Positions 655-44,692 of a stretch of 49,062 bases of DNA are shown one piece after another (position 1 is the stretch's first letter; each line of letters opens with the position of its first letter). The stretch comes from a virus (lineage: Duplodnaviria; Heunggongvirae; Uroviricota; Caudoviricetes): IMG/VR virus record IMGVR_UViG_2917891409_000001, positions 1 to 49,062 of that record; one strand, given 5' to 3'. The notes beneath the pieces are model-generated. The model was not told the origin of the DNA, did not search any database, and saw only the letters and a program-made list of their open reading frames with translations. The translations under genes and the position numbers were made by a program.

Positions 655-701
655 TTCCGGATGAGATGTATACACATCACCATCCGGTAATTTTAAACGT
701 A

Positions 702-1985: not shown

Positions 1986-2032
1986 AGGTTGCTCCGGGCT
2001 TTAAAATGGAAAAAATGAATCCGTTGAAGCCT

Positions 2033-2047
2033 GCTTTTTTATACTAA
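2033..2047. other. attL: attL core (lambda-type 15-bp common core GCTTTTTTATACTAA)
   Basis: exact core sequence followed by the lambda P' arm sequence. Confidence 0.85.
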
Positions 2048-3387: not shown

Positions 3388-3426
3388 CGCAAAGTCTCCG
3401 CAATTACACGCAAGAAAAAACCGCCA

Positions 3427-3594
3427 TCAGGCGGCTTGGTGTTCTTTCAGTTCTTCAATTCGAATATTGGTTACGTCTGCATGTGCTATCTGCGCCCATA
3501 TCATCCAGTGGTCATAGCAGTCATTGATGTTCTCTGCTTCGATAACTCTGTTGAATAGTTCTCCATTCCATTCACCTGTGACTCGGAAGTGCAT
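3427..3594 (-). CDS. small hypothetical protein (55 aa) downstream of xis
   Basis: own translation MHFRVTGEWNGELFNRVIEAENINDCYDHW...; below ORF-track length cutoff. Confidence 0.4.
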   Translation of the reverse strand: MHFRVTGEWNGELFNRVIEAENINDCYDHWMIWAQIAHADVTNIRIEELKEHQAA

Positions 3595-3677
3595 TTATCA
3601 TCTCCATAAAACAAAACTCGCCGTAGCGAGTTCAGATATAATTTCCACCAAAGGCAGTAGTTGCTTGATGCTAAGAA

Positions 3678-4106
3678 TTATTCAATATCTATTCCTGTAA
3701 TATCTTTTATCTTTTTCCTTGCAAAGCCTTTTGCTAGTGATTTTGAAACACTCATAAGTGTACTAATTCCCTCATCCTTAAAGTTTGTTTTTATAGCTTG
3801 CCAGACCTCCTTTTGACGTAAGTCAGCAATAAAGTCATGCCCTCTTGCTGTCAACCTCAGTGGTACTTCGATCCAACTATATCCAACACCTTCCCCTAAC
3901 GCTTTGGACATTATATGACCGAACCCAGGTTTTCCATCAACCCTGACTATTAATTCGTAGTCACATAATAATCGCATATGGAAAATAAAATTTTGGTCAT
4001 ATCTATTAAAGCCATTATCCTCTAGTTCACTAAGCATCGTGTCAGGGCCATGAGTTTTTTCGAATGCGATAAGTAGATCTTTTAGATATTGCTGGTCTAA
4101 TTTCAT
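3678..4106 (-). CDS. hypothetical protein (142 aa), accessory gene in pL operon
   Basis: ORF in AT-rich segment, no recognised motif. Confidence 0.5.
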   Translation of the reverse strand: MKLDQQYLKDLLIAFEKTHGPDTMLSELEDNGFNRYDQNFIFHMRLLCDYELIVRVDGKPGFGHIMSKALGEGVGYSWIEVPLRLTARGHDFIADLRQKEVWQAIKTNFKDEGISTLMSVSKSLAKGFARKKIKDITGIDIE

Positions 4107-4134
4107 TGCCGCCTCCGTGACATGTCACAGAGAT

Positions 4135-4473
4135 TTATATCATTAATTTTGTTTCGTGCCAGCCTTTGGTCACCCAGCATTGTGAGTCACCATTACACGG
4201 GCATGAATTAACAGGAACTCTCTCGCCGCACTTACCGCAACGTTTTCTGCTGATCGATTTTATACGCCAGCGCACACGTGCATCATCTTGGCGGCTCAGT
4301 AACGCGATGTACTCACCAAACTCGTAAGGCGCACGCCTGAAGCGACGCGTGGCACAGTTACGCTCCAGCATTTCAATTTCCTGAGCATCAAGTACAAGCT
4401 CCAGCTTACGCATACCGGATGATGCTTGCTTGGCCCTCTGATCGGCTTTGCGCTCTGCTGCTGATTTAGCCAT
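4135..4473 (-). CDS. hypothetical protein with C-terminal Cys-rich (zinc-ribbon-like) motif
   Basis: 112 aa; CGKCGERVPVNSCPCNGDSQC near C-terminus. Confidence 0.5.
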   Translation of the reverse strand: MAKSAAERKADQRAKQASSGMRKLELVLDAQEIEMLERNCATRRFRRAPYEFGEYIALLSRQDDARVRWRIKSISRKRCGKCGERVPVNSCPCNGDSQCWVTKGWHETKLMI

Positions 4474-4690
4474 TCTGCTTTTCCTGCATCAGGAGAAAGA
4501 CAATCATAGCGGCGCGGATGCTTCCGATATCTCTTTATGCGATAAGCACATACAAGCAGCGAACCATCAACTGGAGTGAGTGAGGAATCGACCACAAGCA
4601 ACGCCCCTTGCAATATGCCTTCGCGGTAATGGCTGTCACCCGCGGAACAATTTATCTGCTGGCTGCATGAAAAGCCAGCAATACAACTTT

Positions 4691-4722
4691 TGCTGACTTT
4701 CCACCGTTAACGCGACACAACC
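4691..4722. repeat. 32-bp perfect inverted repeat, left copy (partner at 5681-5712)
   Basis: TGCTGACTTTCCACCGTTAACGCGACACAACC; exact reverse complement at 5681-5712. Confidence 0.85.
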
Positions 4723-4809
4723 TTTGTTCCTGAGCTTCACGTTGCAGAGCCGATAATCTCCGTCTCTTTAAATTAAAAAGACGGAGACTATTAAAAACTC
4801 ATTAAAACA

Positions 4810-5454
4810 TCAGGAAACAACAGATTCCCCGTAAAACGCTACAGCCTGTGCAGACTGGGAGTCCATATCATCATGGAGATCTCTGGAGTATGGGAGGGAG
4901 TTGACTGTCGATATAAATATACTGTCATTTTCTAAAGTGAAAATTTCTGATTCGAGACTACCAATATCACCACGTACAGGATTAGTCCACCCACTAAACA
5001 GTAAAAATCCCCATTCCTGAAAAAGCCCGGAATTCACTTCACGTTTTACATCATGAAACATTTCTCCCGTCAGTTCATCGAAAGGGACATTATTGATATC
5101 GCGTCGTGCCGGGACAGTCCCTTTTTTATCCTCAATCCAAAACAATGCATCGTAAAATCTGTCCGACGTTGCGGTACGAGGTTTAAAGAAGCGATAAGGT
5201 TTAATTAAATAAGATGACACATTTTTCCCTGTGGCTTTATCCTTCGCAAAAATAACAAATGTTTTACCAATGCAACTTTCATCAATATCATTTGAAAATG
5301 ACACCACGCCGTCCTGATTTACAGTCAGCGAATTGTCTCCCGCATTGGTGACAACACTCCAGTCCAACGTATTATTATTGACAACATCATTGTCAACCAC
5401 CATCTGAAATGTCGCACCTGGAAATAATGTTTTCGGGAATGAACCATTAGCCAT
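4810..5454 (-). CDS. hypothetical protein, paralog A of a 3-member family (possible Ig-like N-terminal domain)
   Basis: 214 aa; shares SLFPGATF..VIDND.....G.V.F........GK.FVIFA.DK and C-terminal AQAVA.YGES with ORFs at 17817-18536 and 20319-20999. Confidence 0.6.
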   Translation of the reverse strand: MANGSFPKTLFPGATFQMVVDNDVVNNNTLDWSVVTNAGDNSLTVNQDGVVSFSNDIDESCIGKTFVIFAKDKATGKNVSSYLIKPYRFFKPRTATSDRFYDALFWIEDKKGTVPARRDINNVPFDELTGEMFHDVKREVNSGLFQEWGFLLFSGWTNPVRGDIGSLESEIFTLENDSIFISTVNSLPYSRDLHDDMDSQSAQAVAFYGESVVS

Positions 5455-5680
5455 GTCTTTTTTTTATATCGAACACATGGTGGCTCACTAGAACACCGGT
5501 AATTTTTGGCATAAAAAACTCCTTATTTGTTTAATTGAAATGCGATCAATAAATTCGATCACCAAAGAGATATTATTACTTTCACAAGAATAAATGTTGT
5601 TATTTGTTTATTATAAAACAATCATCACCCAGAAAAGAAAAAGATGCAGCTCGTTAACAAAAACCTTTGTGGCATATTAA

Positions 5681-5712
5681 GGTTGTGTCGCGTTAACGGT
5701 GGAAAGTCAGCA
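5681..5712. repeat. 32-bp perfect inverted repeat, right copy
   Basis: reverse complement of 4691-4722. Confidence 0.85.
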
Positions 5713-5926
5713 GATAAAATTGTTCTGTGGGTGACAATCCATCACCCTGAGGATGCTGATATTGCCCCTTGCGCATCATGTGGATTAATTCAACGCCGGC
5801 CAGTATCGTAGCCGTTCCATGAAATAGGTGTGCAAGTTCTCCGGTTGCTCACGGGCTACCTGTTCTGCAATTACCGGTATATTCATCCGCTCTTTGTAGG
5901 CAACGCCGCTGGCGGCCAGGTCAACG

Positions 5927-5962
5927 TTGAAGTGGTCAACCAAAACTGGCCACCGAGTTAGA
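5927..5962. mobile_element. solo IS3-family terminal inverted-repeat-like sequence (remnant)
   Basis: TGAAGTGGTCAACCAAAACTGGCCACCGAGTTAGAG closely resembles the IS end at 48695 (TGTAGTGGTCAAGTAATATTGGCCACGG); no transposase adjacent. Confidence 0.4.
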
Positions 5963-5968
5963 GTTTTT

Positions 5969-6451
5969 TCAGTTGTCGCGTATATCAGATGCAAGCGACT
6001 GTTCGGATTTTGAGTTACATTTCTGTGCAAACATCTCCACCCCCTGCGCCCGTACTTCAGCCAGGCATTTGCGGAACTCGGAAACGTACTGCTCAACGCT
6101 CATTCCCCAGCTAAGTGGGCATTCGTTGAATGTTTCGCCTTCGTGTTCTTCATCAGGTAGCTCTTTGGTAAAGAACTCACGCTCAATGGCGTGGAGTGTG
6201 TCAGCAAAACGGCGTAAATTACTCAAACCTACCGCAATGGAGAATTCAGGAGCATCACATCCGACGCCCATCTGCTGATATACGGTGGTTTTGAAGGCCT
6301 TAAGCCCAGCATTTTCAGCCGCCAGAGCCTCGCATTTAGCTTCAAGTTCACCGAATTTACGAACAAGATATTCAGCGTTTGTTTCGTTAACCTTTAAATC
6401 ACGTGGTATGCATTTACCTTTCAGAAAACCATCCATCTCAATTAGTGTCAT
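5969..6451 (-). CDS. hypothetical protein (160 aa)
   Basis: ORF in leftward operon; stop overlaps next gene start region. Confidence 0.5.
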
Positions 6452-6657
6452 TTGTTAATCCTCAAAACTTTATGCCCGGGCGCAAAAGCACGCGTTTTGT
6501 CTTTGCTTATTCGCCACCCGTCTGTACGGGCCTCTTTTGCACAGCCAGCCCATGACGTACCGATATACTCACCGAAGTCTGGCGACTTATATTTACCATC
6601 TGTACACTGGCGACAATCACAATAGAGATGCATGGTGTAACTTGCGGCAATAGCCAT
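6448..6657 (-). CDS. hypothetical small Cys-containing protein (69 aa)
   Basis: ORF preceded by AGGAGA Shine-Dalgarno-like sequence. Confidence 0.45.
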   Translation of the reverse strand: MAIAASYTMHLYCDCRQCTDGKYKSPDFGEYIGTSWAGCAKEARTDGWRISKDKTRAFAPGHKVLRINK

Positions 6658-6668
6658 ATCAGTCTCCT

Positions 6669-6848
6669 TTAGTGCGCAAGTGGTTTTTCCAGCGGTTTTG
6701 CGCCGTGCTGGGCTTTTTGCAACAACTGTGACCCATCACCCCCAAAAACCCCCGTCAACCTCAACCGTCTGTTACTAATCCTCACCCACCGCCAGACATC
6801 AAAGCCGTTTCTGCGAGCTAACAGAATTTTTGCCTTACGGTTTTTCAT
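6669..6848 (-). CDS. small hypothetical basic protein (59 aa, MKNRKAK...)
   Basis: own translation; start sequence duplicated at 7017. Confidence 0.35.
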   Translation of the reverse strand: MKNRKAKILLARRNGFDVWRWVRISNRRLRLTGVFGGDGSQLLQKAQHGAKPLEKPLAH

Positions 6849-7017
6849 CTTACTGCGTACCCTTTCTTCCGCCTGTTCTGTGACGCGGTAGGCTTACGCT
6901 TTGCGGCAAAAGCCACCTGACCAAATGGATGGAGTACCGCTATCTTATGGTTGCTAATAACCAGCTCCACCACACGCACAGGTCGCTGTAAAAAAAAGTC
7001 GTTTTGCCTTACGGTTT
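6845..7017 (-). pseudogene. small ORF (MKNRKAK... paralog) interrupted at an A8 run (6990-6997)
   Basis: as written it stops after 22 codons; removing one A gives a 58-aa ORF whose TGA overlaps the next ATG (ATGA coupling). Confidence 0.3.
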
Positions 7018-7191
7018 TTCATCGTTTTGCTCTCCTGCGTTTCTTTGCTGCACGTCGTGCAGCTGCAATACCTGTACGACGCTTCGGGGCCGTGATGCCG
7101 TTGCCATCAGTAAAACCATGCGGCTTTATGAGTGACTGTGACAGCCAAAAACGGATCGGATGTGGTAATAAGCCAACAAATGCCACCTGCA

Positions 7192-7755
7192 TTACGCACT
7201 CTCCTTGTGCAATTGCTTATTAACGTAATCCACAATTTCAGATGACAGTTCAAACGGCGATTTCATCGCATCAATATCCACGTTTCTGTCAATATGTCGG
7301 ATTAAATCGTTCAGGGTTTCAGCACGGATTCCAGATTCAGAAATGCTGTTTTTGCGGCGATCCTGAAGTTCAATCAGGAACTGCCGTAAGAGCGTCCACC
7401 ACTCGCTGTCTACAACCGGCGAACGCATACCCAGCATTTTGTCAGCATCGGCAATCAGCTTGGTCAGGTTCTTATCGCTTATTCTGGTTTGCTGGTTCGC
7501 TTTTGTTTCCAGTTCCGCAATGCGTTTTTTTGCTGCTCCCAGCTCAACTCGCAGTTTCCCAACCGTTAGCGCAATATCCTCGTTCTCCTGGTCGCGGCGT
7601 TTGATGTATTGCTGGTTTCTTTCCCGTTCATCCAGCAGTGCCAGCACAATCGATGGTGTTACCAGCTCATGGAAAAGGTCCGCATCAAATCCCCAGTCGT
7701 CATGCATTGCCTGCTCTGCCGCTTCACGCAGTGCCTGAGAGTTAATTTCGCTCAC
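7192..7755 (-). CDS. Ea22-like coiled-coil protein
   Basis: 187 aa, position and size as lambda ea22; identity by family resemblance only. Confidence 0.45.
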   Translation of the reverse strand: MSEINSQALREAAEQAMHDDWGFDADLFHELVTPSIVLALLDERERNQQYIKRRDQENEDIALTVGKLRVELGAAKKRIAELETKANQQTRISDKNLTKLIADADKMLGMRSPVVDSEWWTLLRQFLIELQDRRKNSISESGIRAETLNDLIRHIDRNVDIDAMKSPFELSSEIVDYVNKQLHKESA

Positions 7756-7974
7756 TTCGAACCTCTCTGTTTACTGATAAGCTCCAGATCCTCCTGGCAA
7801 CTTGCACAAGTCCGACAACCCTGAACGGCCAGGCGTCTTCGTTCATCTATGGGGTCGCCACACTCACAACAATGAGTGGCAGATATAGCCTGGTGGTTCA
7901 GACGACGCATTTTTTATTGCTGTATTGCGCTGTAATTCTTCGATTTCTGATGCTGAATCAATGATGTCTGCCAT
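7752..7974 (-). pseudogene. TraR/DksA-family C4 zinc-finger protein, apparent +1 frameshift in T6 run at 7910-7915
   Basis: N-terminal frame MADIIDSASEIEELQRNTAIK, second frame MRRLNHQAISATHCCECGDPIDERRRLAVQGCRTCASCQ...; one fewer T restores a 73-aa ORF. Confidence 0.5.
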
Positions 7975-8072
7975 CTTCCATTAATCCCTGAATTGTTGGT
8001 TAATACGCTTGAGGGTGAATGCGAATAATAAAAAAGGAGCCTGTAGCTCCCTGATGATTTTGCTTTTCATGT

Positions 8073-8288
8073 TCATCGCTCCTTAAAGACGCCGTTTAAC
8101 ATGCCGATCGCCAGGCTTAAATGAGTCGGTGTGAATCCCATCAGCGTTACCGTTTCGCGGTGCTTCTTCAGTACGCTACGGCAAATGTCATCGACGTTTT
8201 TATCCGGAAACTGCTGTCTGGCTTTTTTGATTTCAGAATTAGCCTGACGGGCAATGCTGCGAAGGGCGTTTTCCTGCTGAGGTGTCAT
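8073..8288 (-). CDS. hypothetical small protein (about 71 aa)
   Basis: internal ATG of 104-aa track ORF, avoiding overlap with upstream gene. Confidence 0.35.
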   Translation of the reverse strand: MTPQQENALRSIARQANSEIKKARQQFPDKNVDDICRSVLKKHRETVTLMGFTPTHLSLAIGMLNGVFKER

Positions 8289-8364
8289 TGAACAAGTCCC
8301 ATGTCGGCAAGCATAAGCACACAGAATATGAAGCCCGCTGCCAGAAAAATGCATTCCGTGGTTG

Positions 8365-8922
8365 TCATGCAGCCTCCCGACGGGCAAGAATCCTTGAGCC
8401 GAACGCCATCAACTCTCCACGATCAACGGTCGTAAAGTGGCAGTGTGTACGGGGGTATGGGTGCCAGATAATGAGCATCGAGCCTTTATTATTTCCACTG
8501 ACGGGTTTCCCGGTGAGTGGGTTAATAAATGCCAGTCGTCCTGCCGTGATGAATCTGACCTCACTGGCGGTTTGTATCGCTTCATGAAACCATCCGACAG
8601 ATGTGTCAGCAGGCAATAACATTACACATCCCACACTACTGAATTTGTTTTCAGTGGCTGCCTTTTTCACAAAAGGGGAAATATTGCTGTATGGTGGATT
8701 CAACCAGACATAACCAGAGGCATATCCCATTGCTTCAGGCCATGAAGTGGTTAATGTGTTCTGCTCCTGTGAGATAAAAAGCCGACATAGTCGGTTTTTT
8801 TCGCTGGCTGCAGCATCAAGTTGAAAAACGAACTCTGCATTAAGCGCAGCAAAAATCTCTGGTGGTGTGCGCCAGCTGTCGCGATGTTCGGCAGGAGTAT
8901 TGCTTCCGGTGAAATCAGTCAT
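8365..8922 (-). CDS. phage orphan DNA N6-adenine methyltransferase
   Basis: 185 aa with NPPY catalytic motif (WLNPPYS). Confidence 0.75.
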   Translation of the reverse strand: MTDFTGSNTPAEHRDSWRTPPEIFAALNAEFVFQLDAAASEKNRLCRLFISQEQNTLTTSWPEAMGYASGYVWLNPPYSNISPFVKKAATENKFSSVGCVMLLPADTSVGWFHEAIQTASEVRFITAGRLAFINPLTGKPVSGNNKGSMLIIWHPYPRTHCHFTTVDRGELMAFGSRILARREAA

Positions 8923-9077
8923 ACAGCCCCCCGTTTATTATTTATCTCCTCAGCCAGCCGCTGTGCTTTCAGGGGATTTCGGATAACAGAAAGGCCGGGA
9001 AATACCCAGCCTCGCTTTGTAACGGAGTAGACGAAAGTGATTGCGCCTACCCGGATATTATCGTGAGGATGCTTCAT
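8919..9077 (-). CDS. small hypothetical protein (52 aa)
   Basis: own translation; ATGA overlaps with exo stop and methyltransferase start. Confidence 0.35.
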
Positions 9078-9754
9078 CGCCATTGCTCCCCAAATACAAA
9101 ACCAATTTCAGCCAGTGCCTCGTCCATTTTTTCGATGAACTCCGGCACCATCTCGTCAAAACTCGCCATGTACTTTTCATCCCGCTCAACCACGACATAA
9201 TGCAGTCCTTCACGCTTCATACGCGGGTCATAGTTGGCAAAGTACCAGGCATCTTTTCGTGTCACCCACATGCTGTACTGCACCTGGGCCATGTAAGCCG
9301 ACTTTATGGCCTCGAAACCACCGAGCCGGAACTTCATGAAATCCCGGGAGGTAAACGGGCATTTCAGCTCAAGGCCATTGCCGTCACTGCATAAACCATC
9401 GGGAGAGCAGGCGGTGCGCATACTTTCGTCGCGATAGATGATCGGGGATTCAGTAACATTCACGCCGGAAGTGAATTCAAACAGAGTTCTGGCGTCGTTC
9501 TCGTACTGTTTTCCCCATGCCAGCGCCTTAGCATTAACTTCCGGAGCCACACCGGTGCAAACCTCAGCCAGCAGGGTGTGGAAGTAGGACATTTTCATGT
9601 CAGGCCACTTCTTTCCTGAGCGGGGCTTTGCTATCATGTTGTGAACTTCTGAAGCGGTGATGACGCCGAGCCGTAATTTGTGCCATGCATCATCCCCCTG
9701 TTCGACAGCTCTCACGTCGATCCCGGTACGCTGCAGGATAATGTCCGGTGTCAT
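9074..9754 (-). CDS. exo: lambda exonuclease (Red alpha)
   Basis: 226 aa, [37 protein letters not shown]... as lambda Exo. Confidence 0.95.
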
Positions 9755-10536
9755 GCTGCCACCTTCTGCTCAGTGGCTTTCTGTTTCAGGAATCCAAGAG
9801 CTTTCACTGCTTCGGCCTGTGTCAGTTCTGACGATGCGCGAATGTCGCGGCGAAATATCTGGGAACAGAGCGGCAATAAGTCGTCATCCCATGTTTTATC
9901 CAGGGCGATCAGCAGAGTGTTAATCTCCTGCATGGTTTCATCGTTAACCGGAGTGATGTCGCGTTCCGGCTGACGTTCTGCAGTGTATGCAGTATTTTCA
10001 ACAATGCGCTCGGCTTCATCCTTGTCATAGATACCAGCAAATCCGAAGGCGAGACGGGCACACTGAATCATGGCTTTATGCCGTAACATCCGTTTGGGAT
10101 GCGACTGCCACGGTCCCGTGATTTCTCTGCCTTCGCGGGTTTTGAATGGTTCGCGGCGACATTCATCCATCCACTCGGTAACGCAGATCGGATGATTGCG
10201 GTCCTTGCGGTAAATCCGGCATGTGCAGGATTCATTGTCCTGCTCAAAGTCCATACCATCAAACTGCTGGTTTTCATTGATGATGCGGGACCAGCCATCA
10301 ACGCCCACCACCGGAACGATGCCGTTCTGCTTATCAGGGAAGGCGTAAATTTCTTTCGTCCACGGATTAAGGCCGTACTGGTTGGCAACGATCAGTAATG
10401 CGATGAACTGCGCATCGCTGGCATCACCTTTAAATGCCGTCTGGCGAAGAGTGGTGATCAGTTCCTGTGGGTCAACAGAATCCATGCCGACACGTTCAGC
10501 CAGCTTCCCTGCCAGCGTTGCGAGTGCAGTACTCAT
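9751..10536 (-). CDS. bet: Red beta single-strand annealing protein
   Basis: 261 aa, [48 protein letters not shown]... as lambda Bet. Confidence 0.95.
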
Positions 10537-10541
10537 TCGTT

Positions 10542-10838
10542 TTATACCTCTGAATCAATATCAACCTGATGGTGAGCAATGGTTTCAACCATGTACCGGA
10601 TGTGTTCTGCCATGCGCTCCTGAAACTCAACATCGTCATCAAACGCACGGGTAATGGCTTTTTTGCTGGCCCCGTGGCGTTGCAAATGATCGATGCATAG
10701 CGATTCAAACAGGTGCTGGGGCAGGCCTTTTTCCATGTCGTCTGCCAGTTCTGCCTCTTTCTCTTCACGGGCGATCTGCTGGTAGTGACGCGCCCAGCTC
10801 TGAGCCTCAAGACGATCCTGAATGTAATAAGCGTTCAT
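10542..10838 (-). CDS. gam: Gam, RecBCD inhibitor (short form; a long form with upstream start is possible)
   Basis: 98 aa, [21 protein letters not shown]... as lambda Gam. Confidence 0.9.
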
Positions 10839-10913
10839 GGCTGAACTCCTGAAAATGGCTGTGAAACTATTGCCCGGGAAATGCCAGGCTGATTAGGAAA
10901 ACAGGAAAGGGGA

Positions 10914-11324
10914 TTAGTGATTCAGGCCGTTGCCTCGTCCGTCGAGAAAAACTTCCACGAGCAAATCACGGGTATAAGTGCGCTCGATGCCGCGATGCAG
11001 ATAAAGCCGTCCGCGTAAATTAGCTGATGCAGTCCAGGTACCATCTTTGTGTTTGACCAGCATTCCTGGCATGACCGCGCCGCGATTAACGGTCTGCGTT
11101 CCGTAATGTTGATGAACCATAAAAACTCCTGCCCGTAAGCTGGGCTGCTGAACATATAGAGACTTCTGCGCGTATTCAGGCGGTGGATGGCCGCCGGTTG
11201 TCATAACTAAGCCGCCTCGTTGAAGCGACTGAGGTATGAAGTGTTGAGTTGATTTCAGCTGGTCACACCGACGTTCACGCGTCCGCTTCACCCCTCGCAC
11301 TCCCCGGAGCCTGCTGAAATTCAA
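10914..11324 (-). CDS. hypothetical protein at N/kil position, first gene downstream of OL-like operators; start uncertain
   Basis: TTG-start ORF with Arg-rich N-terminus (RLRGVRGVKRTRERR); alternative ATG at 11204; not similar to recalled lambda N, Kil or CIII. Confidence 0.35.
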   Translation of the reverse strand: MNFSRLRGVRGVKRTRERRCDQLKSTQHFIPQSLQRGGLVMTTGGHPPPEYAQKSLYVQQPSLRAGVFMVHQHYGTQTVNRGAVMPGMLVKHKDGTWTASANLRGRLYLHRGIERTYTRDLLVEVFLDGRGNGLNH

Positions 11325-11395
11325 GCTGCGGATCTAAGCGGTCATCGCAACGGTGAATCAGGTGGTTGCCGTATCGTTGTGTTGTTGCGATATGG

Positions 11396-11450
11396 TGATA
11401 ATAGCTATTGCTATTGGTGATATCAATACTTATTGCTATTGACTGATGTG
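11396..11450. promoter_or_regulatory. putative OL operator cluster / pL region
   Basis: repeated TTGCTATTG motifs shared with the cI-cro intergenic region. Confidence 0.35.
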
Positions 11451-11559
11451 TTTTGATATTAAATGTTTGATAGCAAAAAGAATTAATTTTGTGACTTGCA
11501 TCGCATAGCGATAACTGAAGCGGGGTTGTGGTGGTTTTTTGAACGGTGTGTGTGATGAG

Positions 11560-11594
11560 GGTAGGGCAAAAGAAAACCCGGCGCGGTGGCCGGG
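11560..11594 (-). terminator. putative intrinsic terminator ending the cI-cassette operon
   Basis: GC hairpin CCCGGC..GCCGGG followed by T-rich tract on minus strand. Confidence 0.4.
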
Positions 11595-11602
11595 TAGCAT
11601 CA

Positions 11603-11794
11603 CTATTCGATTTTTTTAACCATGTAGTTACGTCGTGATGTTCCTAATCTTTCATTGTGAATCTCAGAAACGCTTACTACGAGCGATATTCGTTCACCAA
11701 CTTTATATTTACTTTGAATTTCTCCTAACATATCAATCGGATAAGAAGCCTTTATTTTTCCAAGCTCGCTTGCAATCTCCAATTTCCCGTACAT
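11603..11794 (-). CDS. small hypothetical protein (63 aa), third gene of rex-position cassette
   Basis: ORF directly downstream of the 221-aa gene, same strand. Confidence 0.45.
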   Translation of the reverse strand: MYGKLEIASELGKIKASYPIDMLGEIQSKYKVGERISLVVSVSEIHNERLGTSRRNYMVKKIE

Positions 11795-11868
11795 GGATAA
11801 AATAGCAAGTTCGCCTGATATATGCTCATCCGGTAGCTGAACGACCTTCGTTAAAGCTAAGCGAGCAT

Positions 11869-12534
11869 TCAGTTTTTTATATCTTCTGAAGAAATTGACA
11901 CTTGTCTGGTACCATCACTTAAAGGTCCAATCCAAGTAAGATCAAAGTTAAGACTATATTTTTCGCACTCATTTATGATGTTTTTTAGGTTAGCTGTTGA
12001 TTGCGAACCAATTTCGGCAATTTTAGCCGTGAATGTTTCTTCATCAATGGATGAGAGTAGTGCAAAAATCTCCTTAACAGCATGACTGGATACTGTTTCG
12101 ATGAGCTCGCAAGAACCAGTAGAAAAAGTAACACCTAACTTCGTCGAACCTGGACGCAAGTCTGCCAATCTCATGTCTAATGATTTTTTAACATCAATCG
12201 GCACACGACTAGAATCTTTCCCAGATCCAAGTCGGTAAACTGCTTTCTGTACAAGGGATGCGAGATTACCTGAAATTACAGATAGAATATCTAACGGAAT
12301 AGACCCGAAATCGACCAAAACACCTTTTAATCTCAACTCCATGAAATCACGTAAAGGATGTTGGTTATCGATTGCACGTTGTCTCTCTCGGAGATCGCTC
12401 AGATGGGAGTCAAGTGATCTAAATATAATGTCATCAGCAAATGATCTCCCCTTATTTTGAGCAAGCAGATCCACATCGCGTTGAATGAACGCAATTCGCT
12501 CCTTGAGGGAGTTGAATGTTTTTTCTTCGCTCAT
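11869..12534 (-). CDS. hypothetical protein (221 aa), partner of nucleotidyltransferase gene
   Basis: start overlaps stop of upstream gene by 4 bp; contains RAIDNQH (Rx5H, HEPN-like spacing, weak). Confidence 0.55.
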   Translation of the reverse strand: MSEEKTFNSLKERIAFIQRDVDLLAQNKGRSFADDIIFRSLDSHLSDLRERQRAIDNQHPLRDFMELRLKGVLVDFGSIPLDILSVISGNLASLVQKAVYRLGSGKDSSRVPIDVKKSLDMRLADLRPGSTKLGVTFSTGSCELIETVSSHAVKEIFALLSSIDEETFTAKIAEIGSQSTANLKNIINECEKYSLNFDLTWIGPLSDGTRQVSISSEDIKN

Positions 12535-13004
12535 AACATTACCCTCACGAGGCCTTTAGGATTCTCCTTCCGATCAAAACCAAACCACCCTCTCCAGTAA
12601 CTTCGCCTTTCACTATAATCGATTTCTGGATGATTTTCAGGCAGCAAAAGAACGTCAATGCTGTAGTTTTCTTTAATAAAATCTCTATTTAACAATGAGC
12701 TAACCAATGGCATCAGCGTGTTTGGCAAAGAGTTTAGGGCCAAATAATCGACGACCACGAGTATATCTATATCATCAGGTTCAGGTTTCTCTGTAGTGAA
12801 TGAACCATCGATCCACACTTCAGAAAAACATAGACACTGCTGATTAACAAGTTTAAATTGCTCAATAAGCTGTATAAAATTACAGTATAGCATACTTCTT
12901 CTAACGGATTTTGGGAAGGTGTCGACACAAAGAGACTTGATGCCATCACTATCCATATCATGAAATCCTGCTGTAAGAAGAGGTGGGAAGCTAGGCTTTT
13001 CCAT
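12531..13004 (-). CDS. nucleotidyltransferase-fold protein (pol-beta superfamily, minimal nucleotidyltransferase-like)
   Basis: 157 aa; motif DGSFTTEKPEPDDIDILVVVD fits G[SG]x9-13DxD, later acidic residue in SIDVLLL; sits where lambda has rexA. Confidence 0.6.
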   Translation of the reverse strand: MEKPSFPPLLTAGFHDMDSDGIKSLCVDTFPKSVRRSMLYCNFIQLIEQFKLVNQQCLCFSEVWIDGSFTTEKPEPDDIDILVVVDYLALNSLPNTLMPLVSSLLNRDFIKENYSIDVLLLPENHPEIDYSERRSYWRGWFGFDRKENPKGLVRVML

Positions 13005-13085
13005 CCTAAGTCCTTGTTTATGCCATATAGTGTTCTATTTAATATTCTTGAAAAGAGTGTGCCTTAAAAAGCTACAGGCTAATTA

Positions 13086-13613
13086 TTAACCATGCTTCCT
13101 GTACGTCTGCGGCATGCTCCCAATAACCTTACCGAAGATGAACACCCGGTTCATCTCGTCTTTCTCGATCGGGTCCCACGGTGAGTAGCTCTTGTTATCA
13201 GAGATAACCAGTAGCTTATCCTTCATCATTTGCAGGCGCTTTACATGGGCGGTGTCGTCATACAGAAACGCATAGATACCATCACCGTCGAAAGATTTAA
13301 CCGTGATATCAACGAACAGCAGATCACCTGGTTCGATCGTTCCTGACATGCTGTCACCACGCACGTTAATGATGCGGATATTTTCCGCCTTCCTGCCATC
13401 GAACATGTGACGAGCATCGTCAAACGAGTACTCAACCGAGCGTAGAACTTCTACAAACTCACGGTTGATTACACCCGGCCCAGCACTGACTTCTATATCA
13501 AGAACGTCAATCTTGAAGTATTTGGAATGGTTGACAGCAGGCTTCCCTGATTGTTGACCGTCATTTCTCATCGGGCCTATGCCTGATGAGAGCCACTCTG
13601 TTCGAACACCCAA
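13086..13613 (-). CDS. cI: CI-like repressor, C-terminal S24 peptidase (LexA-like autocleavage) domain fragment
   Basis: GDSM serine motif and downstream Lys; upstream frame is open and joins the HTH fragment if one T of the T6 run at 13634-13639 is removed. Confidence 0.7.
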   Translation of the reverse strand: MGVRTEWLSSGIGPMRNDGQQSGKPAVNHSKYFKIDVLDIEVSAGPGVINREFVEVLRSVEYSFDDARHMFDGRKAENIRIINVRGDSMSGTIEPGDLLFVDITVKSFDGDGIYAFLYDDTAHVKRLQMMKDKLLVISDNKSYSPWDPIEKDEMNRVFIFGKVIGSMPQTYRKHG

Positions 13614-13626
13614 TGCATTAGCTATT

Positions 13627-13779
13627 TCAACAATTTTTTGTTGAGCCGCGTGCGTTGCCGCTTGTTAGTCTCCAGATTGTGGGTTGAGCTACGCCAGACG
13701 CCTTTGCAAGAGCGCCTTGAGACATTCCAGATTGTTCCATCGCTAGGTTTAAGCGATCAGCAAGAGTTTCTTTTTTCAT
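13627..13779 (-). pseudogene. cI: CI-like repressor N-terminal HTH fragment (frameshifted relative to C-terminal domain)
   Basis: MKKETLADRLNLAMEQSGMSQGALAKASGVAQPTIWRL... HTH_XRE pattern, ends prematurely. Confidence 0.65.
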
Positions 13780-13789
13780 AAGTTTTTAA

Positions 13790-13870
13790 TTTATACGCTT
13801 GCGTATTGATGGTCAAAACATGTTTTGCTATTGATTGAATTAATACGCATTGCTATTATCCATTCATTGT
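13790..13870. promoter_or_regulatory. putative OR operators with divergent pRM/pR
   Basis: palindrome ATACGCTTGCGTAT plus repeated TTGC(G)TATTGAT motifs between divergent cI and cro-like genes. Confidence 0.4.
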
Positions 13871-13884
13871 AATACCAATAGGAA

Positions 13885-14118
13885 TTGATAATGACAAATC
13901 AAACCATTCAACTCGCAATCAGTATTACAGGTAGTCAAAAACGACTGGCAGATCTATGCGGTGTAGCCCAGCCCACTGTTTGGCGTTGGCTACACGGTGG
14001 CGGAATTGATGCCCGCTATGTAATGAAAATTGTCTCAGCCACTGGTGGAAAGATTAAACCAGCAGATATTCGTCCCGACCTTGCACCATTGTTTAACGCG
14101 AGTAATTCTGCCGCCTAA
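13885..14118 (+). CDS. cro: Cro-like HTH regulator
   Basis: 77 aa, HTH (LADLCGVAQPTVWRW), divergent from cI. Confidence 0.6.
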   Translation: MIMTNQTIQLAISITGSQKRLADLCGVAQPTVWRWLHGGGIDARYVMKIVSATGGKIKPADIRPDLAPLFNASNSAA

Positions 14119-14142
14119 ACTGCGGCGTTAACTGATAAGGCA

Positions 14143-14688
14143 ATGACTATGCAACCACTTACATACCAACAGACTAGCGGATTTAGCCCGACTGCGGTGA
14201 TAAATCGTTCTCAAACAAAACAGGCGCCAGGCCACGAAAAAATCCGTGATGCCGTTCGCGCCTGGTCGGCTGCAGATAATCAGGATGTTGTTGCCGCACT
14301 CATTGTGAATGAGTATCGGGAGCAGGGCGGCGGCACCATCGATTTCCCTGATGATGTCAGCCGTGCACGCCAGAAGCTGTTCCGCTTCCTCGATAACAAA
14401 TTCGATTCTGAAAAATACCGAAATAACGTGCGTGAACTGACCCCGGCAATTCTGGCGGTACTACCGCTGGAATATCGCGGCCACCTGGTTGAGCAGGATA
14501 GCTTCATGGCTCGGTTGGCTGAAATGGAAAAGGAACTCAGTGAGGCAAAGCAGGCGGTCATTCTCAACGCACCACGCCACCAGAAACTGAAGGAAATGAG
14601 TGAAGGTATTGTGTCGATGTTTCGTGTGGACCCGGATCTGGCTGGTCCATTAATGGCGATGGTGACCACCATGCTGGGGGCAATATGA
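14143..14688 (+). CDS. hypothetical regulatory protein at cII position
   Basis: 181 aa between cro-like gene and O; not lambda CII-like by sequence. Confidence 0.4.
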   Translation: MTMQPLTYQQTSGFSPTAVINRSQTKQAPGHEKIRDAVRAWSAADNQDVVAALIVNEYREQGGGTIDFPDDVSRARQKLFRFLDNKFDSEKYRNNVRELTPAILAVLPLEYRGHLVEQDSFMARLAEMEKELSEAKQAVILNAPRHQKLKEMSEGIVSMFRVDPDLAGPLMAMVTTMLGAI

Positions 14689-14773
14689 CAGGTTCAGAAA
14701 TGGCGAAAGCGGTCTGCGGGAACAGAGCCGACTTTCAGGTGCAAATCGTAACGCACTCATTGCGGAAGGAATT

Positions 14774-15703
14774 ATGGCAAACACTGCTGAGATATTCAAT
14801 TTTCCAGTGCCGGATGAGGCACAAAAGGAGCGGCGCGTGGCAGATCTCGATGATGGTTATACGCGCATTGCAAATGAGTTGCTGGAAGCTGTGATGCTGG
14901 CCGGATTAACACAGCACCAGCTTCTGGTCTTTCTGGCTGTCATGCGCAAAACATATGGCTTTAATAAAAAACTGGATTGGGTTAGCAACGAGCAACTTTC
15001 CGAATTAACCGGGATATTGCCGCACAAGTGTTCTGCTGCAAAAAGTGTTCTGGTAAAGCGTGGGATTTTTATTCAGAGCGGGCGGAATACCGGCATTAAT
15101 AATGTGGTCAGTGAATGGTCAACATTACCCGAATCAGGTAAGAAAAATAAAGTTTACCTGAAAGAGGTAAATTTACCTGAATCAGGTAAAAAAAGTTTAC
15201 CCAAATCAGGTAAAGACGTTTACCCGAATCAGGTAAACACAAAAGACAAAATAACAAAAGACAATATAAAACCTTATTCGTCCGAGAATTCTGGCGAATC
15301 CTCTGACCAGCCAGAAAACGACCTTCCTGTGGTGAAACCGGATGCTGCGATTCAGAGCGGCAGCAAGTGGGGGACAGCAGAAGACCTGACCGCCGCAGAG
15401 TGGATGTTTGACATGGTGAAGACCATCGCGCCATCAGCCAGAAAACCGAATTTTGCAGGGTGGGCTAACGATATCCGCCTGATGCGTGAACGTGACGGAC
15501 GTAACCACCGCGACATGTGCGTGCTGTTCCGCTGGGCATGCCAGGACAACTTCTGGTCCGGTAACGTGCTAAGTCCGGCCAAACTCCGTGACAAGTGGAC
15601 CCAACTCGAAATCAACCGTAACAAGCAACAGGCTGGAGTGACAGCCGGAAAATCAAAACTGGACCTGACAAACACTGACTGGATTTATGGGGTGGATTTA
15701 TGA
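14774..15703 (+). CDS. O: replication initiator O
   Basis: 309 aa; internal iterons; C-terminus matches recalled lambda O. Confidence 0.85.
   Translation: MANTAEIFNFPVPDEAQKERRVADLDDGYTRIANELLEAVMLAGLTQHQLLVFLAVMRKTYGFNKKLDWVSNEQLSELTGILPHKCSAAKSVLVKRGIFIQSGRNTGINNVVSEWSTLPESGKKNKVYLKEVNLPESGKKSLPKSGKDVYPNQVNTKDKITKDNIKPYSSENSGESSDQPENDLPVVKPDAAIQSGSKWGTAEDLTAAEWMFDMVKTIAPSARKPNFAGWANDIRLMRERDGRNHRDMCVLFRWACQDNFWSGNVLSPAKLRDKWTQLEINRNKQQAGVTAGKSKLDLTNTDWIYGVDL
15120..15275. repeat. ori: ori iterons (about five TACCYGAATCAGGTAA-like repeats) plus AT-rich tract inside O
   Basis: direct repeats read in sequence; established lambda ori architecture. Confidence 0.7.
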
Positions 15704-16401
15704 AAAACATCGCCGCACAAATGGTTAACTTTGACTGTGAGCAGATGCGCCGGATCGCCAACAACATGCCGGAACAGTACGACGAAAAGCCACAGGTACA
15801 GCAGGTAGCGCAGATCATCAACGGTGTGTTCAGGCAGTTACTGGCAACTTTCCCGGCGAGCCTGGCTAACCGTGACCAGAATGAACTGAACGAAATCCGC
15901 CGCCAGTGGGTTCTGGCTTTCCGGGAAAACGGGATCACCACAATGGAACAGGTTAACGCAGGAATGCGCGTAGCCCGTCGGCAGAATCGACCATTCCTGC
16001 CATCACCCGGGCAGTTTGTGGCCTGGTGCCGGGAAGAAGCATCCGTTAACGCCGGGCTGCCAAACGTCAGCGAGCTGGTTGATATGGTTTACGAGTATTG
16101 CCGGAAGCGTGGCCTGTATCCGGATGCAGAGTCTTATCCGTGGAAATCGAACGCGCATTACTGGTTGGTTACCAACTTGTACCAGAACATGCGGGCCAAT
16201 GCGCTGACTGACGCGGAATTACGGCGCAAGGCTGCCGATGAACTGACCTGTATGACAGCGCGAATTAACCGTGGTGAGACGATACCTGAACCAGTAAAAC
16301 AACTTCCTGTTATGGGCGGTAGACCTCTAAATCGTGCACAGGCTCTGGCGAAGATCGCAGAAATTAAAGCTAAGTTCGGACTGAAAGGAGCAAGTGTATG
16401 A
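15700..16401 (+). CDS. P: replication protein P (DnaB loader)
   Basis: 233 aa, same length and recalled sequence as lambda P. Confidence 0.9.
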   Translation: MKNIAAQMVNFDCEQMRRIANNMPEQYDEKPQVQQVAQIINGVFRQLLATFPASLANRDQNELNEIRRQWVLAFRENGITTMEQVNAGMRVARRQNRPFLPSPGQFVAWCREEASVNAGLPNVSELVDMVYEYCRKRGLYPDAESYPWKSNAHYWLVTNLYQNMRANALTDAELRRKAADELTCMTARINRGETIPEPVKQLPVMGGRPLNRAQALAKIAEIKAKFGLKGASV

Positions 16402-16697
16402 CGGGCAAAGAGGCAATTATTCATTACCTGGGGACGCATAAGAGCTTCTGTGCACAGGACGTTGCCGCGGTAACAGGCGCAACCGTAACCAGCATAAATC
16501 AGGCTGCGGCTAAAATGGCGCGGGCAGGAATCCTGGTCGTTGATGGTAAGGTCTGGCGAACGGTGTATTACAGGTTCGCTACCAGGGAAGAACGGGAAGG
16601 AAAGGTGAGCACGAATCTGATTTTCAAGGAGTGTCGCCAGAGTGCCGCGATGAAGCGGGTTTTATTTGTTTATGCGGCGGGGGGAGGAAATCAGTGA
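16398..16697 (+). CDS. ren: Ren
   Basis: 99 aa, MTGKEAIIHYLGTHKSFCAQDVAAVTGATVTSINQAA... as lambda Ren. Confidence 0.8.
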   Translation: MTGKEAIIHYLGTHKSFCAQDVAAVTGATVTSINQAAAKMARAGILVVDGKVWRTVYYRFATREEREGKVSTNLIFKECRQSAAMKRVLFVYAAGGGNQ

Positions 16698-16972: not shown

Positions 16973-17578
16973 ATGAGCACACAACTAGTCTTTCATCAAA
17001 CAAAATTCCATCCTGTTAAACACAACAACAGTATCTGGCTTACTGCCGTTGAGATTGCTCAAGCTCTCGGATATAAAAAATCTGATGCCGTAACTCAGAT
17101 CTACGATCGAAATTCCGATGAATTTAGGGCAGATATGACTGAGACCCTCAATTTGAGTGTCTCAGGGAACTACCAGAAAACAATACGCATTTTCTCCCTC
17201 CGTGGTGCCCATTTGATCGCTATGTTCGCCCGCACTCCTGTAGCCAAAGAATTCCGCCGCTGGGTTCTGGATATTCTCGATCGAGAAGTTCAACAATCCC
17301 CAATCACAAAACAATTCACTGATAACGAACTTTGCACACTCGCCTGGTTATGGCGAGCAGGGGATGTGATGTTAACCGCCTGCCAGAATGTTACTCCACT
17401 TCTTCAGGTTGCGGAGCATCGCGAAGCCGGTCGCTTTACTTCTATTGAGCAAGAATATCCCCAGATACTACATAAGGCGCGCGAAATCCTTGCCAGAGAA
17501 ACGGCACATGTAAGATTCCAGCCGTGGCAGGATGATAAGTGGAGCCGAGTATTGCCGCATTTGCGTTCTGAGCAGTAG
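16973..17578 (+). CDS. phage antirepressor-like protein (Bro-N/KilA-N-type N-terminus)
   Basis: 201 aa; HNNSIWLTAVEIAQALGY motif. Confidence 0.6.
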   Translation: MSTQLVFHQTKFHPVKHNNSIWLTAVEIAQALGYKKSDAVTQIYDRNSDEFRADMTETLNLSVSGNYQKTIRIFSLRGAHLIAMFARTPVAKEFRRWVLDILDREVQQSPITKQFTDNELCTLAWLWRAGDVMLTACQNVTPLLQVAEHREAGRFTSIEQEYPQILHKAREILARETAHVRFQPWQDDKWSRVLPHLRSEQ

Positions 17579-17816
17579 CAATAAAGTTTCCGGTGAGAAA
17601 TGTCACCAGCATTTTGTTATGAAACGGGTATTGGCGGTATATTGGGGGCGGGGCTTTAGTTATTAGGTGTCGAGAATTAATTGTTTGTAGCAATATAAAA
17701 AGGAGCGCTTAAGTTCGTTTATTTTTTAAGCTTCATATACATAGTGGATAAAAATGAGAACCACCCGCTGAACGGGTGGTTTTGCGCAAGTTAAATTTTA
17801 TAATTTCAGTGAATCT

Positions 17817-40116: not shown

Positions 40117-40815
40117 TGCAGGATATCCGACAGGAAACACTGAATGAATGCACCCGTGCGGAGCAGTCTGCCAGCGTGGTGCTCTGGGAAATCGATCTGA
40201 CAGAGGTTGGTGGAGAACGTTTATTTTTTCTGTAATGAGCTGAACGAAAAAGGTGAGCCGGTCACCTGGCAGGGGCGACAGTATCAGGCGTATCCCATTC
40301 AGGGGAGTGGTTTCGAACTGAATGGCAAAGGCACCAGTACGCGCCCCACGCTGGCAGTCTCTAACCTGTACGGCATGGTCACCGGGATGGCGGAAGATCT
40401 GCAGAGTCTGGTCGGCGGAACGGTGGTCAGGCGTAAGGTTTATGCCCGTTTTCTGGATGCGGTGAACTTCGTCAACGGAAACAGCGACGCCGATCCGGAG
40501 CAGGAGGTGATTAGCCGCTGGCGCATCGAGCAGTGCAGCGAACTGAGCGCGGTCAGTGCCTCCTTTGTACTGTCCACGCCGACTGAAACGGATGGTGCCG
40601 TTTTTCCGGGGCGCATCATGCTGGCTAATACCTGCACCTGGACCTATCGCGGTGATGAGTGCGGTTATAACGGTCCGGCGGTCGCGGATGAATATGACCA
40701 GCCGACGTCCGATATCACGAAGGATAAATGCAGCAAATGCCTGAGTGGCTGTAAGTTTCGCAATAATGTCGGCAATTTTGGCGGCTTCCTTTCCATTAAC
40801 AAACTTTCGCAGTAA
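40116..40815 (+). CDS. L: tail tip protein L, apparent +1 frameshift near 40220-40229
   Basis: N-terminal 39 codons MQDIRQETLNECTRAEQSASVVLWEIDLTEVGGER in one frame, remainder (track ORF 40207-40815) in +1 frame. Confidence 0.75.

Positions 40816-42166: not shown

Positions 42167-44692
<2,526 letters not shown>

What the first reader, a model, noticed from the sequence alone, without database searches (positions are those of the whole stretch)
13086..13779. cI-like repressor split by a +1 frameshift in a T6 run
The HTH N-terminal frame runs 50 codons and stops; the S24 peptidase domain continues in another frame that is open upstream. Removing one T at 13634-13639 yields a canonical roughly 230-aa CI-type repressor (HTH, linker, GDSM/Lys autocleavage domain). 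If real, the prophage lacks an intact repressor, which is hard to reconcile with stable lysogeny unless the prophage is otherwise defective.
Basis: seen in the sequence. Interest (0 to 1): 0.6.

Follow-up and report, generated by a model that had tools for sequence, protein, structure and literature searches.

The report
Sequencing-error frameshift in prophage repressor
The split phage repressor gene is really in the deposited sequence, but it is almost certainly an Ion Torrent homopolymer miscall and not a biological mutation, so the gene underneath is an ordinary intact lambda-type cI repressor.

Summary
On the minus strand, a 50-codon HTH ORF (13779-13627) stops just after a T6 run (13634-13639). 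The Peptidase_S24 domain continues in another frame (13613-13086). Removing one T gives a 230-aa HTH + S24 repressor that is 229/230 identical to the cI of phage PhiR30_1.

The biological reading does not hold. The window is PDIH01000072.1:135518-184579, from Escherichia cryptic clade II strain E2586. That draft was sequenced only with Ion Torrent single-end reads at 45x (PMC6639607).

Five other assemblies of the same host lineage and prophage were compared with the window over about 43.7 kb. They show 0 substitutions and 14 one-base length differences, all at nucleotide runs. Twelve of the 14 are an extra base in the window.

The same kind of difference also splits Q, tail genes L and J, and a gene downstream of cI. 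All four A/T 8-mers in the window are 7-mers in the sister assemblies.

Two sister assemblies carry T5 and an intact 230-aa cI. One of them is probably built from E2586's own reads. No T6 copy was found in 709 E. coli complete genomes or in three contig collections.

Verdict: a homopolymer sequencing artefact (about 0.93) over an ordinary, known repressor. Low interest.

The parts
13086..13779 (-). cI-type repressor gene (230 aa once one T of the run is removed): XRE-type HTH, linker with an Ala-Gly site (VSAGPG), and Peptidase_S24 domain (GDSM ... VKRL)
   Evidence: Pfam HTH_3 + Peptidase_S24 on the sister copy. 229/230 identity to PhiR30_1 cI. N-terminus resembles 434 repressor and C-terminus resembles UmuD'.
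13634..13639 (.). T6 run (A6 in gene orientation) that carries the extra base; relatives have 5
   Evidence: No T6 copy in 709 E. coli genomes. An exact 33-mer with A6 has 0 hits in three collections, while the A5 version has at least 120 hits.
13627..13779 (-). 50-codon ORF: native residues 1-48 of cI plus Asn-Cys-stop
   Evidence: Partial HTH_3/HTH_31 match. No gene with exactly this product is on record in the assembly collection.
13086..13613 (-). 175-codon ORF that holds the complete S24 domain
   Evidence: The source annotation calls only a 161-aa product from the internal ATG at 13571.
13783..13787 (.). Second run-length excess (T5 against T4), 4 nt upstream of the cI ATG in the pRM/leader region
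   Evidence: All 123 aligned relatives have T4. Sisters L138 and L139 have T4.
13788..13884 (.). OR-like intergenic region between cI and cro, with operator-like CAATAGCAA-type motifs
   Evidence: exact copy at 13825-13833 and near copies at 13850 and 13876..
13885..14118 (+). cro-position gene (YdaS-type HTH), divergent from cI
   Evidence: PF15943, E 1e-14.
12531..13004 (-). DUF6932 gene just downstream of cI (rexA position); PADLOC candidate PDC-M63A
11869..12534 (-). PDC-M63B-like gene, 221 aa here against 310 aa in relatives; cut short by a one-base deficit in the run at 11873-11878 (T6 against T7)
11400..11445 (.). OL-like operator cluster (two exact CAATAGCAA copies)
23319..23324 (.). 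A6 run (A5 in sister) that splits antiterminator Q (229 aa in sister)
40220..40222 (.). T3 run (T2 in sisters) that splits tail gene L (232 aa in sisters)
44667..44672 (.). A6 run (A5 in sisters) that splits tail-tip gene J (1132 aa in sisters; 840 + 271 aa ORFs here)

Best explanation
The extra T at 13634-13639 is a homopolymer over-call left in an Ion Torrent-only draft assembly (strain E2586, PDIH01000072.1). In the real DNA the run is most likely T5. The gene then encodes an ordinary 230-aa lambda/434-type CI repressor. By analogy with characterised members, its XRE-type HTH domain would bind the OL and OR operators, and its S24 Ser-Lys domain would dimerise and undergo RecA*-stimulated self-cleavage at the Ala-Gly site during SOS induction. 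Shown here: the provenance and sequencing platform, the pattern of discrepancies, and the intact state in sister assemblies. Inferred: that E2586's DNA itself has T5 (no read-level check was possible), and the operator binding and autocleavage.
For: 1) Provenance. L137, L150, L152 and L155 from GCA_004745335.1 contig PDIH01000072.1 are 100% identical to the window, and the window ends at the contig end. PMC6639607 states that PDIH is strain E2586, sequenced with Ion Torrent single-end 35-400 nt reads at 45x and assembled with MIRA/SPAdes.

2) Sister assemblies of the same host lineage and prophage show 0 substitutions and only one-base run-length differences:
- RHJN01000010.1 (L138): 8 over 16.45 kb.
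- Logan SRR6148324 (L139): 4 over 10.8 kb.
- Logan SRR8835202 (L156): 4 over 17.9 kb.
- Logan SRR8835202 (L153) and VATN01000034.1 (L154): 2 over 12.4 kb.
- Union: 14 sites in about 43.7 kb, 12 of them +1 in the window.

3) The miscall rate rises with run length. All four A/T 8-mers in the window are 7-mers in the sisters, while only about 1 in 1000 3-mers is affected. PMC12046094 describes this behaviour for Ion Torrent.

4) L138 and L139 carry T5 and an intact 230-aa cI with HTH_3 + S24.

5) The same kind of difference also breaks Q, L, J and the PDC-M63B-like gene. Such a set is implausible without a single substitution.

6) The errors run both ways. The Logan assembly of SRR6148324 splits int at a GG/G site where the window is intact.

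7) No T6 allele was found elsewhere: 709 E. coli complete genomes with this allele all lack it. The A6 33-mer has 0 hits in genome, viral and metagenome contigs, against at least 120 hits for A5.

8) E2586 has the second-highest CDS density of the 16 strains in the paper's Table 1 (1.03 per kb, against 0.91-0.94 for several others). That is expected if many genes are split (my arithmetic).
Against: No read pile-up could be inspected, so the state in E2586's DNA is inferred. That SRR6148324 is E2586's own run is also an inference: among the PD** assemblies of that project, only PDIH carries this prophage's lineage-specific proteins, and the accession number fits the batch. If it is a different isolate, it shows only that a clone-mate has T5. 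Three run-length states (6997, 11878, 14710) are shared by the window and the Logan SRR6148324 assembly against RHJN01. Some length differences may therefore be real or systematic, not random.
Confidence: 0.93

Rival explanations
1. The frameshift is a real mutation in strain E2586. The prophage would be a decaying, cryptic element that has lost cI together with Q, L and J, for example in a lineage with elevated run-slippage mutation.
For: The deposited consensus at 45x carries it. If Q were also truly broken, late genes would be silent, which would soften the cost of losing the repressor. Three run-length states are shared between two assemblies, so not every difference need be random noise.
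Against: There are 14 length changes and 0 substitutions in about 43.7 kb against sisters. From my recollection of mutation-accumulation experiments in E. coli (Lee et al. 2012 PNAS, not consulted here), substitutions outnumber indels several-fold even in mismatch-repair mutants. The strong dependence on run length and the +1 bias fit flow-based sequencing. Early genes that would be toxic on derepression look intact (KilR 68 aa, O 309 aa, P 233 aa), so a true cI null should be counter-selected. The Logan SRR6148324 assembly has T5.
Confidence: 0.05
2. The T6 run is a functional slippery site. A full-length repressor would be made from the shifted gene by transcriptional slippage or +1 ribosomal frameshifting, or the run would act as a phase-variable switch of immunity. 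Alternatively, the two pieces would work as a split repressor.
For: A/T runs can support low-level slippage in principle (general knowledge). The two ORFs overlap the run, so one slip would restore the frame.
Against: No other genome or contig carries the shifted allele, so there is no conservation to suggest a programmed event. All relatives encode the fused protein with A5. From my recollection, six A is shorter than the runs of about 9 or more known to give efficient transcriptional slippage. The 50-aa piece ends inside the HTH_3 domain (residues 13-63 in the intact protein), so it lacks the last helices of the fold. The many records with a 161-aa S24-only product are start-codon choices on intact genes, not splits.
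Confidence: 0.02

Closest known systems
cI repressor of Escherichia phage PhiR30_1 (XSB42258.1) and the E. coli prophage protein WP_001295669.1 ('XRE family transcriptional regulator')
   Same: 229/230 identical once the extra base is removed. Same neighbourhood: divergent YdaS-type cro, YdaT-type gene, O, P and ren on one side, and DUF6932 plus a 310-aa gene on the other. About 98% DNA identity across the immunity region.
   Different: Only the one-base run lengths at 13634-13639 and 13783-13787, plus 14 substitutions in 901 nt.
Phage 434 repressor (N-terminal domain, PDB 1per/1r69/2r63) and lambda CI-type repressors in general
   Same: The N-terminal residues 6-67 align with the 434 repressor DNA-binding domain (E about 2e-5). 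The architecture is HTH + linker + S24 domain, and the gene sits between OL- and OR-like operator clusters, divergent from cro.
   Different: Low sequence identity to 434 and a different immunity specificity. The operator motif appears to be CAATAGCAA-like, which was not tested.
LexA/UmuD S24 self-cleaving peptidases (PDB 1umu, 1ay9)
   Same: The C-terminal residues 137-219 align with UmuD' (E 1e-4). The Pfam Peptidase_S24 match is full length. GDSM and VKRL motifs and an Ala-Gly site are present (read from the sequence).
   Different: It is a phage repressor, not an SOS regulator or polymerase subunit. Cleavage was not tested.
Ion Torrent homopolymer indel errors that create false frameshifts in draft bacterial assemblies
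   Same: One-base run-length changes whose frequency rises with run length, mostly at A/T, which differ between independent assemblies and split genes. The error mode is described in PMC12046094 and the platform is stated in PMC6639607.
   Different: Nothing notable. This looks like a textbook case.

Membership tests
Lambda/434-type CI repressor (HTH + Peptidase_S24, LexA-like self-cleaving repressors) | N-terminal XRE/Cro-C1-type helix-turn-helix DNA-binding domain | tested here: met
   HTH_3 (28.3 bits, cutoff 23) at residues 13-63 of the repaired or sister protein. Alignment to the 434 repressor DNA-binding domain. In the window as written, the ORF stops at residue 50, so only part of the domain is encoded.
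Lambda/434-type CI repressor (HTH + Peptidase_S24, LexA-like self-cleaving repressors) | C-terminal Peptidase_S24 domain with a Ser-Lys dyad | tested here: met
   PF00717 match, 67-68 bits, profile 5-116 of 116. GDSM (Ser) and VKRL (Lys) motifs are visible in the sequence. Assignment of the dyad residues is by motif, not by a structure-based alignment.
Lambda/434-type CI repressor (HTH + Peptidase_S24, LexA-like self-cleaving repressors) | Ala-Gly (or Cys-Gly) self-cleavage site in the linker | tested here: met
   'EVSAGPGV' at residues about 96-103, at the start of the S24 match. Cleavage itself cannot be tested here.
Lambda/434-type CI repressor (HTH + Peptidase_S24, LexA-like self-cleaving repressors) | Both domains encoded in one continuous reading frame | tested here: not met
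   Not met in the window as deposited, because of the T6 run. Met in every relative examined, including sister assemblies with no substitutions against the window: L138, L139, L132 and L140-L147, L149, whereas L148 is broken at a different run. The failure is attributed to a sequencing error.
Lambda/434-type CI repressor (HTH + Peptidase_S24, LexA-like self-cleaving repressors) | Immunity-region context: divergent cro, flanking operator clusters, lambdoid prophage | tested here: met
   YdaS-type cro at 13885-14118, then O, P and ren downstream. Operator-like motifs at 11.40-11.44 kb and 13.82-13.88 kb. Lambda-type int at the ybhC-side attachment site and lambda-like structural genes.
Lambda/434-type CI repressor (HTH + Peptidase_S24, LexA-like self-cleaving repressors) | Operator binding, immunity to superinfection, and RecA-dependent induction | not testable with these tools
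   Needs experiments.
Sequencing artefact (flow-based homopolymer miscall) | The source data come from a platform with this error mode | tested here: met
   PDIH (E2586): Ion Torrent only, single-end, 45x. Identity of the window with PDIH01000072.1.
Sequencing artefact (flow-based homopolymer miscall) | Differences from clone-mate assemblies are confined to run lengths, with no substitutions, and scale with run length | tested here: met
   0 substitutions and 14 indels in about 43.7 kb. 4 of 4 A/T 8-mers are affected.
Sequencing artefact (flow-based homopolymer miscall) | Raw reads at the site are heterogeneous or favour the shorter run | not testable with these tools
The nearest proxy is the Logan assembly of SRR6148324 (probably the same strain's run), which gives T5.

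The most novel reading that the evidence does not exclude
The extra T is real in strain E2586. The lysogen would then carry a lambdoid prophage whose repressor, Q, L and J were all knocked out by run-slippage mutations without a single substitution. That would imply an unusual slippage-prone mutational regime, or a phase-variable immunity switch, in an environmental Escherichia clade II strain.
Probability: 0.04. Interest if true: 0.35.

Novelty: not a real feature. Interest (0 to 1): 0.05.

Why it matters
The finding matters mainly as a caution. Frameshifts at A/T runs in this contig, and presumably across the 16 Ion Torrent clade II drafts, should not be read as pseudogenes, defective prophages or missing immunity. 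If the frameshift were real, it would raise the question of how a lysogen survives without a repressor. The evidence says that question does not arise here. The gene underneath is a common, already annotated cI allele, found in hundreds of E. coli prophages and in isolated phages.

Tried and rejected
1) Looked for the same split elsewhere.
- A 131-nt probe against E. coli complete genomes matched 709 genomes, none with T6.
- The exact A6 33-mer had 0 hits in genome contigs, viral contigs and metagenome contigs. The A5 control had at least 120 hits.
- The 50-aa product is not on record.

2) The 161-aa S24-only product is on record in 953 blocks, which at first looked like widespread splitting. 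Reading 11 such loci showed intact 230-aa frames with A5 in ten of them (L132, L140-L147, L149), so the short product is a gene-caller start choice. L148 has a different run change at the ATGAAAAAA start. Rejected as evidence for a natural split.

3) Comparison with more distant phages (PhiR30_1, PhiR11_1, 120 IMG/VR loci) flagged some run differences (8927, 11121, 11522) that turned out to be polymorphic among relatives and not private to the window. They were dropped from the tally.

4) The one-base deficit at 14710 was considered as a break in O. The lambda-like O start (MANTAEIF...) lies downstream at 14774, so O is probably unaffected. The state is shared with the Logan SRR6148324 assembly and may be real.

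5) Programmed frameshifting or a two-piece repressor was rejected for lack of any conservation and because the HTH domain is truncated.

6) A literature search for the PhiR phage series found nothing relevant.

7) The lookup of the 787-aa Stf ORF failed because of the start codon I chose. It succeeded with the 785-aa version.

Full report
**Observation**

On the minus strand, an ATG at 13779 opens a 50-codon ORF that ends at 13627, just after an A6 run (T6 on the + strand, 13634-13639). A 175-codon ORF in another frame (13613-13086) follows. The first ORF matches HTH_3/HTH_31 only over the first part of those profiles. The second carries a complete Peptidase_S24 match.

Alignment with an intact phage copy (PhiR30_1) and an intact E. 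coli prophage copy shows that the only length difference inside the gene is one extra base in that run. A second one-base excess lies 4 nt upstream of the start codon (T5 at 13783-13787, against T4).

**What the gene is**

With the run at five, the gene encodes 230 aa. It has HTH_3 at residues 13-63, a linker with an Ala-Gly site (EVSAGPGV), and a full-length S24 domain with GDSM and VKRL motifs.

- It is 229/230 identical to the annotated cI of phage PhiR30_1.
- Its N-terminus aligns with the 434 repressor DNA-binding domain and its C-terminus with UmuD'.
- It sits in a standard lambdoid immunity region. On one side are a divergent YdaS-type cro (13885-14118), a YdaT-type gene, O, P and ren. 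On the other side are two accessory genes in the rexAB position.
- Operator-like CAATAGCAA motifs cluster at 11.40-11.44 kb and 13.82-13.88 kb.

The prophage starts at a lambda-type int next to ybhC (the att-lambda side) and runs through lambda-like head and tail genes to the end of the window.

**Is the split found elsewhere?**

It is not. Of 5,426 complete E. coli genomes, 709 carry this N-terminal allele. The best match to a 131-nt probe differs by exactly the one-base gap, so none has T6. An exact 33-mer with A6 has no hit in 185,579 species-representative genomes, in IMG/VR or in JGI metagenome contigs. The same 33-mer with A5 hits at least 120 IMG/VR contigs. The 50-aa product is not on record in the assembly collection.

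A 161-aa S24-only product is on record in 953 blocks, but this is a gene-calling effect. I read 11 such loci. Ten have A5 and an open 230-aa frame. The eleventh (L148) has a different run change at the start codon. The true start has no Shine-Dalgarno sequence, as expected for a pRM-type near-leaderless message, so callers pick an internal ATG.

**Provenance**

Exact-protein look-ups with the window's YbhC and prophage proteins returned contig PDIH01000072.1 of GCA_004745335.1. That contig is 100% identical to the window wherever it was fetched. The coordinates place the window at 135,518-184,579, ending at the contig end.

[quoted passage not shown] It was sequenced only on Ion Torrent (single-end reads of 35-400 nt, 45x) and assembled with MIRA/SPAdes. 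This also explains why ybhC is only about 97% identical to E. coli.

Ion Torrent is known for homopolymer indel errors that grow with run length, differ between runs of the same isolate, affect adenine most often, and create false frameshifts (PMC12046094).

**The decisive comparison**

The same look-ups returned other assemblies of the same host lineage (identical YbhC) and the same prophage. Against the window they show the following:

| Assembly | Locus | Span compared | Substitutions | One-base indels |
|---|---|---|---|---|
| RHJN01000010.1 | L138 | 16.45 kb | 0 | 8 |
| Logan assembly of SRR6148324 | L139 | 10.8 kb | 0 | 4 |
| Logan assembly of SRR8835202 | L156 | 17.9 kb | 0 | 4 |
| Logan SRR8835202 and VATN01000034.1 | L153, L154 | 12.4 kb | 0 | 2 |

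The union covers about 43.7 kb (window 1-16454 and 21439-48724), with no substitution at all and 14 one-base length differences:

| Site | Window / sister | Effect |
|---|---|---|
| 5465 | T8 / T7 | |
| 6753 | C5 / C4 | |
| 6997 | A8 / A7 | |
| 7915 | T6 / T5 | |
| 11878 | T6 / T7 | truncates the PDC-M63B-like gene |
| 13639 | T6 / T5 | splits cI |
| 13787 | T5 / T4 | |
| 14710 | C1 / C2 | |
| 23319 | A6 / A5 | splits Q |
| 26418 | T4 / T3 | |
| 32803 | T8 / T7 | |
| 32817 | T8 / T7 | |
| 40220 | T3 / T2 | splits L |
| 44667 | A6 / A5 | splits J |

Twelve of the 14 are an extra base in the window, and twelve are at A/T. All four A/T 8-mers in the window are 7-mers in the sisters, whereas only about one in a thousand 3-mers is affected. 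RHJN01 and Logan SRR6148324 both have T5 at the cI site and an intact 230-aa cI. Q (229 aa), L (232 aa) and J (1132 aa) are intact in the sisters.

The noise runs both ways. The Logan assembly of SRR6148324 splits int at a GG/G site and lengthens an A7 run where the window is intact.

**Interpretation**

Fourteen length changes with no substitution, a steep dependence on run length, a +1 bias, and a source that is Ion Torrent-only together make the cI 'frameshift' a sequencing and assembly artefact. I put this at about 0.93.

Among the assemblies of that BioProject, only PDIH carries this prophage's lineage-specific proteins. The number SRR6148324 also fits the project's accession batch. That Logan assembly was therefore probably made from E2586's own reads and gives T5. 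This link is an inference, not something I could verify.

Two of the three run states that the window shares with that assembly against RHJN01 (11878, 14710) were checked against more distant relatives, all of which carry the RHJN01 length. All three, including 6997, may be real strain differences or systematic miscalls. I cannot tell which, and it does not affect the cI site.

**Rivals**

- *A real mutation in a decaying prophage (about 0.05).* This would need ten or more slippage events and no substitution. From my recollection of E. coli mutation-accumulation work (not consulted here), that does not fit even mismatch-repair mutants. It would also leave apparently intact kilR, O and P derepressed.
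- *Programmed slippage, phase variation or a two-piece repressor (about 0.02).* There is no conservation to support this. It would also rely on a 50-aa piece that ends inside the HTH domain.

**Verdict**

The biological implication is not supported. What lies there is a common, already annotated cI allele. Novelty: not a real feature. Interest: about 0.05. The practical lesson is that run-associated frameshifts in this contig, and probably in the whole set of Ion Torrent clade II drafts, should not be read as pseudogenes.

Noticed in passing
window 11869-13004 (minus strand): The two genes downstream of cI, in the rexAB position, are a DUF6932 protein (157 aa) and a 310-aa protein (221 aa here because of a run-length deficit at 11873-11878). 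They match the PADLOC candidate defence system PDC-M63 A and B (E 7e-43 and 3e-42). In relatives with the same cI, this slot holds other cargo instead: HipA_2 + DUF3037, SIR2_2, or a 313-aa protein. It looks like a defence-gene hot spot co-transcribed with the repressor.
   Followed up: partly
window 23319-23324, 40220-40222, 44667-44672: Antiterminator Q, tail gene L and tail-tip gene J are each split by a one-base run excess that is absent from sister assemblies showing no substitutions over the regions compared. These are the same kind of artefact as in cI.
   Followed up: yes
window 5458-5465, 6990-6997, 32803-32810, 32817-32824: All four A/T runs of length 8 in the window are length 7 in sister assemblies. 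Two of them lie in the D-E intergenic region.
   Followed up: yes
window about 17197-18900 and 19659-21330: A module of about 2.46 kb (a Bro-N/P22_AR_C-type gene plus an Invasin_D4-like gene on the opposite strand) is present twice in tandem at 86-97% identity. Sister contigs break near here, which suggests an assembly-confounding repeat.
   Followed up: partly
window 1-654 (+): A 217-aa ORF between ybhJ (aconitase family) and ybhC has no Pfam match and no megablast match in 5,426 E. coli complete genomes. It appears specific to this Escherichia clade II lineage.
   Followed up: no
window 48703-49062 (minus strand): An IS-type transposase fragment (rve family) sits at the very end of the window, which is also the end of contig PDIH01000072.1. 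The prophage's right end and attR are therefore not in the window.
   Followed up: no
window 14685-14774: A one-base deficit at 14710 (C against CC in RHJN01 and TC in 105 other relatives) removes a 30-codon N-terminal extension of O that annotators call in relatives (339 aa against 309 aa). The lambda-like start at 14774 is unaffected. The state is shared with the Logan SRR6148324 assembly, so it may be real.
   Followed up: partly
window 13780-13800 and relatives: The cI start codon has no Shine-Dalgarno sequence and lies about 9 nt after a TATAAA box, which suggests a leaderless or near-leaderless pRM transcript as in lambda. This is probably why gene callers often start the gene at the internal ATG and give a 161-aa product in 953 blocks.
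   Followed up: partly
window 46835-46989 and 47024-47178: A 155-nt internal direct repeat (91% identity) lies within the side tail fibre gene.
   Followed up: no
locus L148 (GCA_008122345.1), about 200 nt upstream of position 2501: Another assembly has the same cI allele broken at a different run: ATGAAAAAGAAA in place of ATGAAAAAAGAAA at the start codon. Runs in this gene seem to be recurrent sites of length miscalls or changes.
   Followed up: no
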